DNA of 64,000 nt. Source: Escherichia phage KookSpook. The DNA is taken from the sequence record PP925842.1; one strand, given 5' to 3'. Every line of letters begins with the position of its first letter. Position 1 is the first letter of the stretch. The position numbers were made by a program, and so were the translations under genes. Below, piece after piece: positions 28,854-29,351 of the stretch. The notes under the pieces are model-generated. The model searched no databases and was not told the origin of the DNA. It saw only the letters and a program-made list of their open reading frames with translations.

Positions 28854-29351
28854 ATTTATATTGAAGTGAGAGACATTAGTAAAAATTGATTTTGCTAATT
28901 TTTCTTGTTTACAATCCGCGATACGGAACAGTTAGGCTGCCCCATTAAGGGTTGTTTTAACTATTACTAGTGTTTATACTACATTAGTTAATTATCAATT
29001 AAGTGATCTGCATACCCTGAATTCGGAAAGGTAAATCCAAACCGTGCATATTTAGCTCGTTATATAGGCAGAGCTTTATATGGGGGTGCGAACGAAAAGA
29101 GCAGCGAATGGTGACACGTCCAGTAGCCACCTACCAATAGGATAGTGAGGGCAATCAGAATCGGCTTAGCGGCCAATGACCTAGGTTCTGGTCTGGATAA
29201 GAGTTAAGAGAGTGTAGCACTGAGGTATGATAACTTATTCATACTGCTTGATGATAATTAATGTTTTGTATAGATGGTAGTAATAGTTGTTCTATTCTTT
29301 CTGAATAGTCCTAGAGAAAAATATCCGAATAACCAACATAGGAGTACTGTT

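What the first reader, a model, noticed from the sequence alone, without database searches (positions are those of the whole stretch)
28854..29351. About 500-nt untranslated leader between a consensus promoter and the SF2 ATPase gene
The promoter at 28825-28853 is followed by about 500 nt with no credible ORF before a probable GTG start at 29352 (AGGAG RBS). The leader contains a GC-richer block (about 29080-29220) unlike the AT-rich genome. It may be a regulatory leader, an ncRNA or an origin next to the putative origin-binding helicase.
Basis: seen in the sequence. Interest (0 to 1): 0.45.

Follow-up and report, generated by a model that had tools for sequence, protein, structure and literature searches.

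The report
Conserved structured leader RNA before T5 D2
The roughly 500 bases between an early promoter and the replication helicase gene of this T5-like phage are not an empty spacer but encode a large, intricately folded RNA that is conserved across T5-like phages, matches no catalogued RNA family, and has an unknown function.

Summary
The window is a T5-like phage. Positions 28854-29351 are a non-coding stretch between a conserved T5-type early promoter (TTGCAC-17-TATAATA, 28825-28854) and the GTG start (29352) of the gene matching the T5 "D2" bipolar SF2 helicase, which databases annotate as "replication origin binding protein". The same 470-760 nt leader sits at this position in T5 and in Klebsiella, Pectobacterium, Providencia and Proteus relatives. 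It is absent from Vibrio-type relatives.

It is a structured RNA element of about 430 nt:
- a 5' hairpin;
- a conserved stem-loop;
- a roughly 35-bp AU-rich closing duplex;
- a roughly 240-nt GC-richer multi-helix core containing an invariant hairpin, CU[UAGC]GG;
- a 3' hairpin next to an anti-Shine-Dalgarno UCCU.

Covariation is strong: 95% of cells are paired against 37-45% in slid controls, and 28 of 50 pairs show compensatory changes in a plain MAFFT alignment. G.U pairs outnumber A.C pairs 92 to 15, which fits the transcribed strand. The leader is more conserved than the flanking genes.

Rfam 15 gave no match. I found no conserved ORF, iterons, DnaA-box enrichment or host homologue, and no paper describing it.

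Function is inferred, not shown. The most likely role is cis-acting control or processing of the D2 mRNA. The main rivals are an origin primer / R-loop RNA and an excised trans-acting RNA.

The parts
28752..28788 (+). Intrinsic terminator of the upstream operon (T5.107 homologue). Stem ACCGAGUCA/UGACUCGGU followed by a U-run.
   Evidence: Inverted repeat I4. Conserved with covariation in A1. The homologous site is annotated as a terminator in T5 at 58952-58976.
28825..28854 (+). T5-type early sigma-70 promoter: -35 TTGCAC at 28825-30, 17-nt spacer, -10 TATAATA at 28848-54. The transcription start near 28860 is inferred.
   Evidence: Sequence. Hexamers invariant in A1. Annotated as a promoter in T5 and AKFV33. 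Every lineage has TTGNNN-17-TATAAT at the head of its leader.
28861..28914 (+). H1, a 5'-terminal hairpin whose core stem is 28868-28884 / 28890-28906.
   Evidence: Minimum-free-energy fold and type-A consensus fold. A hairpin at +3..+55 is present in all 9 lineages, with unrelated inner-stem sequences. It appears dispensable: it is replaced in L025, L027 and L047.
28911..28955 (+). CR1 stem-loop, 16 bp. The apex is CAGU[UAG]GCUG at 28929-28939, inside the near-invariant GAUACGGAACAGUUAGGCUGCCCCA.
   Evidence: Type-A consensus fold. In the 6-lineage alignment A6, 4 of 9 pairs are compensatory. Invariant across 34 type A and B leaders.
28958..28998 (+). 5' arm of the long AU-rich closing duplex (about 35 bp, GC 0.23).
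   Evidence: Inverted repeats I1, I8 and I10. Folds. A 35-45 bp long-range duplex is found at the same place in all 9 lineages. Pair 28963/29284 is A-U in 17 sequences, G-C in 16 and G-U in 1.
29002..29245 (+). GC-richer multi-helix core (GC 0.45). Helices: H4 29002-13/29212-21; H5 29014-18/29083-87, closing a three-way junction with H5a (29024-44) and H5b (29047-82, 12-nt loop); H7 29114-23/29193-204, enclosing H7a (29126-52) and H8 (29154-62/29184-92); H10 29224-45.
   Evidence: A covariance model (R1) built only from other lineages finds 29001-29219 (18.4 bits, E 1.3e-3) as the only hit in the 64-kb window. Covariation statistics. There are 9 compensatory pairs within type A alone, for example 29011/29214, 29120/29196 and 29156/29190.
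29163..29174 (+). H9 mini-hairpin GGCU[UAGC]GGCC. It carries the only octamer invariant in all lineages, CUUAGCGG (29165-29172), and sits in the loop closed by H8.
   Evidence: Invariant in A1 and present once per leader in 47 loci. The enclosing helix H8 has a different sequence in every lineage (8 of 8 pairs compensatory). The third pair of H9 varies between G-C, A-U and C-G.
29248..29289 (+). 3' arm of the long closing duplex.
   Evidence: Same evidence as for the 5' arm.
29292..29313 (+). H11 hairpin (CUAUUC 29292-97 / GAAUAG 29303-08) followed by UCCUA (29309-13), a candidate anti-Shine-Dalgarno. Both lie in a segment nearly invariant across types A and B.
   Evidence: Consensus fold. Invariant columns in A5. 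In the partition function the Shine-Dalgarno pairs with 29309-29312 at p=0.67-0.77, and the Shine-Dalgarno is unpaired with probability 0.27.
29340..29354 (+). Translation initiation region of D2: Shine-Dalgarno AGGAG at 29340-44 and GTG start at 29352-54.
29352..32141 (+). D2 helicase gene, annotated elsewhere as 'replication origin binding protein' (929 aa). It is an SF2 helicase related to herpesvirus UL9.
   Evidence: Pfam PF02399 at aa 387-533. PHROG 3712. PDB UL9-type origin-binding-protein chains match at E 4e-5. Walker A motif ASLGTGKT lies at aa 399-406, as in Wong et al. 2013, PMC3632103.

Best explanation
SHOWN: this region encodes a conserved, highly structured RNA of about 430 nt. 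It would be transcribed from the early promoter as the 5' leader of the D2 helicase mRNA. The order of elements is a 5' hairpin, a conserved stem-loop (CR1), a roughly 35-bp AU-rich duplex closing a roughly 240-nt multi-branched core with an invariant CU[UAGC]GG hairpin, a 3' hairpin, and then the ribosome binding site.

INFERRED mechanism: it acts in cis on D2 expression. The folded domain, probably bound by a protein at the invariant hairpin and at the ultra-conserved flanks, would set how much D2 is made from a very strong early promoter. It could do this in two ways:
(a) by positioning the conserved UCCU next to H11 so that it masks the Shine-Dalgarno sequence;
(b) by offering the long duplex as an RNase III-type processing stem, like the stems that flank pre-rRNAs. 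Cleavage there would separate the core from a D2 mRNA with a short leader.

The confidence figure below refers to this cis-control mechanism. That the element is a functional structured RNA I put at about 0.9.
For: Structure:
- In the plain MAFFT alignment of five other lineages (A3), 95.2% of cells are paired against 37-45% when partners are slid. 28 of 50 pairs have changes on both sides, against 4-7 in the slid controls. None of 500 shuffles reached the observed values.
- A covariance model built from those lineages (R1) recovers the independent type-A lineage, including window 29001-29219. Across 15 distinct sequences 91.8% of cells are paired and 38 of 50 pairs are compensatory.
- Within type A alone there are 9 compensatory pairs, against 0-1 in the slid controls.
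- In 749 kb of other viral contigs, all 14 R1 hits lie in contigs from T5-like phage genomes.

Strand: 92 G.U cells against 15 A.C cells. The forward-strand folding energy is 13-50 kcal/mol lower than that of the reverse complement in all 9 lineages. A promoter in the same orientation heads the leader in every lineage.

Selection: the leader is more conserved than the flanking genes.

Cis link:
- The element always lies directly upstream of D2, with no intervening intrinsic terminator.
- It is absent where D2 homologues have short leaders.
- The near-invariant 3' segment contains the UCCU predicted to pair with the Shine-Dalgarno sequence.
- In DU_PP_V the Shine-Dalgarno is predicted to pair (p 0.97-0.98) with the 5' strand of the H11 equivalent.
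- The long duplex (35-45 bp) is present in all lineages.
Against: - There are no expression, processing or binding data.
- Shine-Dalgarno masking is local, weak and implemented differently between lineages. The probability that the Shine-Dalgarno is unpaired ranges from 0.01 to 0.80.
- A domain of more than 400 nt with invariant loops is far more elaborate than is needed to mask a Shine-Dalgarno sequence.
- Proteus-like L043 has a perfect TTGACA-18-TATAAT only 42 nt before the D2 ATG. D2 could be expressed without the leader there, which favours an autonomous RNA.
- RNase III cleavage is an analogy, not a test.
- Only about 8 independent lineages exist, and Providencia and Proteus relatives match only at the level of motif and architecture.
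Confidence: 0.42

Rival explanations
1. Origin / primer RNA. The transcript from the strong early promoter folds and then forms a persistent RNA-DNA hybrid (R-loop) near the D2 gene. This hybrid is processed into a leading-strand primer or serves as the loading site for D2. That would make the leader the cis-acting replication origin, functionally like ColE1 RNA II or the T4 oriF/oriG transcripts.
For: - The element lies immediately next to the gene for the UL9-like initiator helicase.
- It sits at 48.5% of the T5 genome, and T5 origins are reported 'near the centre' of the molecule (10.1101/866236).
- The distance from promoter to the end of the leader is constant at about 470-520 nt in six lineages.
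- The AU-rich arms (GC 0.23) flank a GC-rich core.
- ColE1 RNA II is a precedent for a primer whose folding is essential (my own knowledge, not tested here).
Against: - There are no iterons, tandem repeats or DnaA boxes.
- The GC-skew minimum is 6 kb away, at the strand switch.
- The antisense promoter-like site is not conserved.
- Vibrio-type relatives have D2 without the element.
- Nothing in the sequence shows hybrid formation.
Confidence: 0.2
2. Autonomous trans-acting RNA. The core closed by the long duplex is excised or stabilised as a discrete RNA of roughly 290-330 nt. It then works in trans, for example as a ribonucleoprotein scaffold, a decoy against a host defence or nuclease, or a ribozyme. 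Co-transcription with D2 would be incidental.
For: - The size, multi-junction architecture and invariant loops resemble large ncRNAs more than simple leaders.
- The closing-duplex geometry resembles pre-rRNA excision stems.
- L043 has its own consensus promoter for D2 downstream of the element.
- The core behaves as an exchangeable module. Types A and B are 43% identical between near-identical flanks, and L037 is a chimera.
- The element lies behind a strong early promoter.
Against: - No terminator follows the element.
- It is strictly syntenic with D2 in every lineage that has it.
- The most conserved parts are the flanks adjoining the D2 ribosome binding site rather than the core.
- No partner or target is identifiable. 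The upstream DUF7415 genes do not co-occur with it in Providencia or Proteus relatives.
Confidence: 0.22
3. Single-stranded DNA element. The fold is used in the + strand DNA, like the ssoA-type single-strand origins of rolling-circle plasmids. In those, RNA polymerase recognises a folded ssDNA and primer synthesis ends at a conserved loop hexamer, CS-6 (TAGCGT).
For: - The invariant loop UAGCG(G) matches CS-6 TAGCGT at 5 of 6 positions.
- Covariation cannot by itself distinguish RNA from ssDNA.
- The element is strand-specific.
- A replication gene lies next to it.
Against: - A 5-nt match is weak.
- No sequence like RSB (the other conserved ssoA motif, recombination site B) was seen.
- A conserved promoter is positioned to transcribe exactly this strand in every lineage, which an ssDNA element would not need.
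- G.T pairs are abundant (92 cells) and are less favourable in DNA.
- T5 is not known to me to replicate through a long-lived ssDNA intermediate at this locus.
Confidence: 0.04
4. A divergent member of a known RNA family, for example a phage RNase P RNA. This was suggested by likeness of GGAACAGUUAGGCUGCCCCAU and CAGAAUCGGCUUAGCGG to the RNase P conserved regions CR-I and CR-V.
For: By eye, type A resembles E. coli M1 RNA in two short motifs (my own knowledge). The phage also carries 19 tRNA genes.
Against: - No Rfam family reaches E<=10 in the window or in 7 relatives, with permissive filters.
- GGCUUAGCGGCC forms a local hairpin supported by covariation, not a long-range P4 helix.
- The 'CAGAA' preceding it is helix H8 and differs in every lineage.
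- The topology differs: nothing lies 5' of H1 that could form P1/P2.
Confidence: 0.02

Closest known systems
ColE1/pMB1 RNA II pre-primer
   Same: A transcript of about 500 nt from a strong promoter. It has several conserved stem-loops, lies at a replication control locus, and depends on its fold for function.
   Different: No antisense RNA I-type promoter is conserved here. No origin has been mapped to this locus. The transcript continues into a protein gene. There is no sequence or Rfam similarity.
RNase III processing stems (pre-16S/23S rRNA stems, T7 early mRNA sites)
   Same: A long duplex formed by sequences hundreds of nucleotides apart, enclosing a structured RNA. It lies in a phage early transcript.
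   Different: Cleavage has not been tested. The duplex is interrupted by bulges and an internal loop (12+7+10 bp and so on). The enclosed RNA is not a known stable RNA.
Phage translational operators of replication genes (T4 gene 32 pseudoknot, T4 gene 43 hairpin, RegA sites)
   Same: Structure in the 5' leader of a replication-protein mRNA that could allow autogenous control.
   Different: Those operators are 20-40 nt and overlap the ribosome binding site. Here the conserved domain is more than 400 nt, and its invariant hairpin lies about 180 nt upstream of the start codon.
Large bacterial and phage ncRNAs of unknown function (GOLLD, ROOL, OLE, raiA)
   Same: A large multi-junction RNA that is richer in GC than its surroundings, is detected by covariation, is phage-associated, and has unknown function.
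   Different: No match to any of their Rfam models. Restricted to T5-like phages of Enterobacterales. Always sits in the 5' UTR of one particular gene.
ssoA single-strand origins (CS-6 TAGCGT)
   Same: A strand-specific folded element of about 200-300 nt next to replication functions, with a conserved TAGCG in a hairpin loop.
   Different: The match is only 5 of 6. No RSB motif (recombination site B, the other conserved ssoA sequence) was seen. The element is promoter-driven, and the genome is a dsDNA phage.

Membership tests
Any Rfam 15 family (4227 models) | Covariance-model match at or near the family's gathering score | tested here: not met
   cmscan with permissive filters at E<=10 on window 28000-30000, and on 7 relatives (32 kb). 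The only matches in the leader region are noise hits (snoRNA models and the like, all far below their gathering scores) and, in one relative, terminator-driven hits over the upstream terminator.
Bacterial RNase P RNA | P4 helix formed by long-range pairing of CR-I with CR-V, and P1/P2 formed by the 5' and 3' ends | tested here: not met
   The CR-V-like GGCUUAGCGGCC forms a local hairpin (H9) inside H8, supported by covariation. No sequence lies 5' of H1. No RNase P model hit.
Bacterial RNase P RNA | Catalytic cleavage of pre-tRNA 5' leaders | not testable with these tools
   Requires biochemistry.
ColE1 RNA II-type primer / R-loop origin | The transcript forms a persistent hybrid with template DNA at a mapped origin and is processed into a primer | not testable with these tools
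   There is only positional support: 48.5% of the T5 genome, against origins reported 'near the centre'.
ColE1 RNA II-type primer / R-loop origin | Antisense regulator RNA transcribed from the opposite strand | tested here: not met
   The one antisense promoter-like site (29459..29431) is not conserved in relatives.
Iteron or DnaA-box dsDNA origin | Clustered direct repeats or DnaA boxes next to an AT-rich unwinding element | tested here: not met
   Only two-copy chance repeats. No tandem arrays. DnaA-box matches number 75, against 86 expected.
Riboswitch / T-box leader | Match to a known aptamer class, with an expression platform (terminator or Shine-Dalgarno sequestration) that alternates with the aptamer fold | tested here: inconclusive
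   No known aptamer class matches and there is no terminator. Shine-Dalgarno pairing with conserved 3' elements is predicted in several lineages, but it is not uniform. A new ligand class cannot be excluded.
RNase III processing stem | At least about 20 bp of near-continuous duplex RNA that is accessible in the transcript | tested here: met
   The closing duplex is about 35 bp in the window (12+7+10 bp and further segments) and 35-45 bp in all 9 lineages.
RNase III processing stem | Actual cleavage by RNase III in vivo or in vitro | not testable with these tools
   Requires rnc+/rnc- Northern blots or in vitro cleavage.
ssoA single-strand origin | RSB (recombination site B) and CS-6 (TAGCGT) motifs in a folded single-stranded DNA | tested here: inconclusive
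   The CS-6-like sequence matches at 5 of 6 positions in the H9 loop. No RSB-like sequence was noticed. Function in ssDNA is not testable here.

The most novel reading that the evidence does not exclude
The leader RNA is the cis-acting initiation element of T5 replication. In this reading a folded origin transcript is recognised at its invariant hairpin by the D2 helicase encoded next to it, and is converted into an R-loop or primer. That would locate, and explain mechanistically, the central replication origin of T5, which as far as I know has not been defined at the sequence level. It would also define a new class of structured origin RNA in a large virulent phage.
Probability: 0.17. Interest if true: 0.85.

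Novelty: new variant of a known kind. Interest (0 to 1): 0.62.

Why it matters
T5 is a classic model phage, and T5-like phages are among the commonest coliphages and Salmonella phages used for biocontrol and therapy. 533 deposited genomes carry this leader. Yet this non-coding stretch of roughly 600 bp, among the best conserved DNA in the locus examined, is unannotated or carries spurious 'hypothetical protein' calls.

Recognising it as a large structured RNA has four consequences:
- It defines a new RNA family that Rfam-style annotation currently misses.
- It provides a concrete, testable handle on how the replication-initiator helicase D2 is controlled, or on where T5 replication starts.
- It offers a natural A/B 'module swap' experiment, because the cores are 43% identical yet share the same architecture. 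This can be used to dissect which parts matter.
- It flags the annotated small ORFs inside the leader in several records as probable false genes.

Tried and rejected
1. Known RNA families. Rfam gave no match with permissive filters. The RNase P likeness was rejected on topology and covariation.
2. tRNA or tmRNA in the leader. ARAGORN finds none there.
3. Hidden coding. No ORF is conserved, and the upstream ATG at 29274 is not conserved.
4. DNA-level origin signals. There are no iterons, tandem repeats, DnaA-box enrichment or GC-skew signal at the leader.
5. An antisense promoter at 29459..29431 is not conserved.
6. Host origin. blastn found nothing in 5,426 complete E. coli genomes. The CR1 pattern gave one match in 185,579 species genomes, in Arthrobacter. 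That match is consistent with chance: at 21 specified bases roughly one match is expected, and R1 finds nothing at the locus.
7. A loose two-motif pattern scan of IMG/VR returned mostly chance matches and wasted a scan. Its loci later served as a 749-kb negative control for the covariance model.
8. mafft Q-INS-i structural alignment could not be run because MXSCARNA is missing.
9. R1 with filters off did not detect the Providencia or Proteus leaders beyond the local hairpin. Their membership rests only on motif, synteny and architecture.
10. Co-occurrence with the upstream DUF7415 proteins, which one record annotates as 'RNA-binding'. It is not strict.
11. The D2 N-terminal domain. A single-sequence AlphaFold model was unusable (pLDDT 40). 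A weak phmmer hit to RNase H3 (E 0.004) is not convincing.
12. Literature. No paper on this RNA was found. The T5 'Rad' anti-retron factor turned out to be a protein, not an RNA. The T5 RNA polymerase-binding protein paper has no data on this locus.
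Full report
IDENTITY OF THE LOCUS

The window is a T5-like phage of the family Demerecviridae. The leader region matches 533 deposited phage genomes by blastn. The best match, at 99%, is a record labelled 'Campylobacter phage C13'. Salmonella phage Stitch and its relatives match at 95%, and T5 at about 92%.

The finding lies between two genes. Upstream is the homologue of T5.107, which ends at 28733. Downstream is the homologue of T5.108, annotated as 'replication origin binding protein'.

The downstream protein has these features:
- A Pfam Herpes_ori_bp segment at aa 387-533.
- Matches to solved UL9-type origin-binding proteins.
- A Walker A motif, ASLGTGKT, at aa 399-406.

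These match the description of the biochemically characterised bipolar SF2 helicase 'D2' of T5 (Wong et al. 2013, PMC3632103). The RefSeq record for T5 attaches the gene name D2 to T5.111 instead.

CHECK OF THE OBSERVATION

Promoter. TTGCAC (28825-30), a 17-nt spacer, then TATAATA (28848-54). The generic sigma-70 scan misses it because the -35 hexamer follows the T5 consensus TTGCTT rather than TTGACA. The hexamers are invariant across nine divergent relatives. The homologous site is annotated as a promoter in T5 and in AKFV33.

Terminator. An intrinsic terminator for the upstream operon (28752-28788) precedes the promoter, so the promoter starts a new transcription unit.

Start codon. GTG at 29352, with AGGAG at 29340-44, is the true start. 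tblastn alignments to relatives down to 28% identity begin at residue 1. The in-frame ATG at 29274 is ATA in T5 and is followed by a frameshift and a TGA in Stitch.

Coding potential. No ORF is conserved in position, strand or length among nine lineages.

Base composition. The GC-richer block is real. The core 29004-29244 has GC 0.45, against 0.23 in its flanking arms and 0.385 for the window.

WHAT IS ACTUALLY THERE

A long leader is syntenic in these phages:
- T5;
- Klebsiella phage Spivey (Sugarlandvirus);
- Pectobacterium phages My1 and DU_PP_V;
- a metagenomic lineage, L185;
- Providencia phage PSTCR5;
- Proteus-like contigs L043 and L044.

The distance from promoter to start codon is 471-764 nt.

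In the first alignment, two motifs stayed invariant or nearly so while the sequence between them diverged: GGAACAGUUNGGCUGCCCCA and CUUAGCGG. They are separated by a nearly constant 224-234 nt.

D2 homologues at 46% identity or less (Vibrio-type and related) have short leaders or none, and lack both motifs.

STRUCTURE AND COVARIATION

I built a plain MAFFT alignment of the inner 220 nt from five lineages that do not include the window's type. RNAalifold predicted 50 pairs on it, 28 of them with compensatory changes. On that alignment:
- 95.2% of cells are paired, against 37-45% when the 3' partners are slid by 1-3 columns.
- 28 pairs have changes on both sides, against 4-7 in the slid controls.
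- None of 500 column shuffles reached the observed values.

A covariance model built from this alignment (R1) was searched against 203 kb that included the whole 64-kb window. It found the window's own lineage at the expected place: 29001-29219, 18.4 bits, E 1.3e-3. Sister genomes scored down to E 6e-5. It found nothing else in the window.

On the resulting 15-sequence alignment, 91.8% of cells pair and 38 of 50 pairs are compensatory. This alignment is fitted to the model, so it leans towards the structure. The MAFFT result above does not have that bias.

As a negative control I searched 749 kb of other viral contigs. All 14 hits at E<=0.01 lie in contigs from T5-like phage genomes.

Within the window's own type A (18 distinct sequences, at least 91% identical, so alignment is trivial), the consensus fold has 152 pairs. 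The 38 pairs that vary split as follows: 9 are compensatory, 19 are one-sided but still pair, and 10 contain a break. Slid controls give 0-1 compensatory pairs.

Examples of compensatory change between the window and T5:
- H4: CUGCAU/GUGUAG in the window, CUGUGU/GCACAG in T5.
- H7: GUCCAG/CUGGAU in the window, GUACAG/CUGUAU in T5.
- H8: CAGAAUC/GGUUCUG in the window, UAGAAUC/GGUUCUA in T5.

G.U cells outnumber A.C cells 92 to 15. The forward strand also folds 13-50 kcal/mol better than its complement in all nine lineages. The fold therefore belongs to the transcribed strand.

ANATOMY IN WINDOW COORDINATES

| Element | Coordinates | Notes |
|---|---|---|
| H1, 5' hairpin | 28861-28914 | |
| CR1 stem-loop | 28911-28955 | apex CAGU[UAG]GCUG; 4 of 9 pairs compensatory across six lineages |
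| Closing duplex | 28958-98 / 29248-89 | about 35 bp, AU-rich |
| H4 | 29002-13 / 29212-21 | |
| H5 | 29014-18 / 29083-87 | closes a three-way junction with H5a and H5b |
| H5a | 29024-44 | |
| H5b | 29047-82 | |
| H7 | 29114-23 / 29193-204 | encloses H7a and H8 |
| H7a | 29126-52 | |
| H8 | 29154-62 / 29184-92 | its loop holds H9 |
| H9 | 29163-74 | invariant GGCU[UAGC]GGCC |
| H10 | 29224-45 | |
| H11 | 29292-29308 | |
| UCCUA | 29309-13 | candidate anti-Shine-Dalgarno |
| Shine-Dalgarno, start | 29340-44, 29352 | |

The 5' hairpin and a 35-45 bp long-range duplex recur in all nine lineages with unrelated sequences.

Covariance model R1 does not detect the Providencia and Proteus leaders beyond the H9 hairpin. 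I count them only as probable distant relatives, on the basis of motif, enclosing helix, architecture and synteny.

SELECTION AND MODULARITY

The leader is more conserved than the genes around it.

| Comparison | Leader | T5.107 homologue | D2 |
|---|---|---|---|
| window vs Stitch | 97-99% | 83.5% | 91.9% |
| window vs T5 | 5' segment 98.7%, core 89.3% | 68.9% | 86.2% |

Two core types exist among close relatives. Type A comprises the window, T5 and Stitch. Type B comprises Lindwurm and many others. The two cores are only 43% identical. They sit between flanks that are 90-97% identical (28899-28975 and 29277-29318). One genome, L037, combines an A core with a B tail.

The core therefore behaves as an exchangeable module that keeps its architecture. 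H1 is replaced in three genomes and seems dispensable.

WHAT IT IS NOT

- No Rfam 15 family reaches E<=10 in the window or in seven relatives.
- A by-eye likeness to RNase P regions CR-I and CR-V fails on topology and covariation.
- The leader contains no tRNA or tmRNA.
- There are no iterons or tandem repeats and no DnaA-box enrichment.
- The GC-skew minimum is at 23048, where the coding strand switches, not at the leader.
- Nothing similar occurs in 5,426 complete E. coli genomes.
- The single CR1-pattern match in 185,579 species genomes, in Arthrobacter, is consistent with chance. At 21 specified bases roughly one match is expected, and R1 finds nothing at that locus.
- Searches of the held literature found no description of this RNA.

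HOW IT MOST LIKELY WORKS

Shown:
- a promoter-headed, strand-specific, covarying RNA fold under strong purifying selection;
- a position always directly upstream of D2;
- no intervening terminator.

Inferred, at about 0.42: it is a cis-acting control or processing module for D2 expression. The support is as follows.
- The near-invariant 3' flank carries a UCCU predicted to pair with the Shine-Dalgarno sequence (p about 0.7 in the window).
- In DU_PP_V the H11 equivalent competes with Shine-Dalgarno masking.
- The universally long closing duplex meets the length requirement of an RNase III substrate. Cleavage there would detach the core from a D2 mRNA with a short leader.

Against this reading:
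- Masking of the Shine-Dalgarno sequence is not uniform between lineages.
- The element is far more elaborate than masking requires.
- Proteus-like L043 has a perfect promoter just upstream of D2.

Rivals:
- An excised trans-acting RNA (about 0.22).
- An origin primer or R-loop RNA (about 0.20). This is positionally attractive because the locus lies at 48.5% of the T5 genome and origins are reported near the centre.
- An ssDNA-level element resembling ssoA, with a CS-6-like TAGCG in the invariant loop (about 0.04).
- Membership of a known RNA family (about 0.02).

VERDICT

As far as Rfam 15 and the held literature show, the element is an undescribed RNA family confined to T5-like phages of Enterobacterales. 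Its function needs experiments.

Limits of this analysis:
- Only about eight independent lineages are available.
- There are no expression data.
- The structure of the type A core rests partly on thermodynamic prediction.
- Tertiary contacts and pseudoknots were not resolved.

Noticed in passing
window 10-10409 (- strand): A cluster of 19 tRNA genes, typical of T5-like phages. ARAGORN also calls one with the unusual anticodon ACU (10336-10409, labelled tRNA-Ser).
   Followed up: no
window 28976-29276 compared with L004, L026-L036 and L037: Closely related phages carry one of two core versions of the leader RNA, types A and B. The cores are 43% identical and sit between flanks that are 90-97% identical. 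L037 is a chimera with an A core and a B 3' tail. This suggests modular recombination of the RNA core.
   Followed up: partly
L003 (AKFV33) 2016-2468; L025, L027 and L047 upstream of the leader: AKFV33 has a homing-endonuclease ORF inserted between the T5.107 homologue and the leader promoter. Three genomes have the H1 hairpin replaced by unrelated sequence, with the nearest TATAAT about 100 nt further upstream.
   Followed up: partly
L043 about 1440-1470 (Proteus-like contig): A perfect consensus promoter, TTGACA-18-TATAAT, lies 42 nt upstream of the D2 ATG and downstream of the structured element. This leader is 764 nt long and contains a second CCUUAGCCG-like motif.
   Followed up: no
window 27391-28733: The upstream genes encode a HAD_SAK_2 domain protein (the HAD domain of 'Swiss Army Knife' RNA repair proteins) and two paralogous DUF7415 proteins. 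One DUF7415 homologue is annotated 'RNA-binding protein' in phage Spivey. DUF7415 is absent upstream of the Providencia and Proteus leaders.
   Followed up: partly
phage record MG065692.1 (hit H1): The closest relative of the window (99% identity) is deposited as 'Campylobacter phage C13' with host C. jejuni, although it is a T5-like phage of the Salmonella/Escherichia type. The host label looks doubtful.
   Followed up: no
several phage records under the leader (e.g. SB13, PMBT26, phA11): Some deposited genomes annotate two to four 'hypothetical protein' ORFs inside this leader. Because no ORF is conserved across lineages, these are probably false gene calls.
   Followed up: partly
window 30165-30443 (D2 aa 272-364): A weak phmmer similarity to RNase H3 (PDB 4py5, E 0.004). 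The aligned region is helical and shows no obvious catalytic residues. The N-terminal 390 aa of D2 have no Pfam domain, and a single-sequence AlphaFold model failed (pLDDT 40).
   Followed up: partly
window about 23048: The cumulative GC skew reaches its minimum here, coinciding with the switch from minus-strand to plus-strand genes.
   Followed up: no
T5 RefSeq NC_005859 (L002): The gene name D2 is attached to T5.111, a 705-nt 'helicase'. However, the published D2 helicase features (PF02399 at aa 392-532, Walker A at aa 399-406) fit T5.108. The nomenclature in the record and in the literature disagree.
   Followed up: partly
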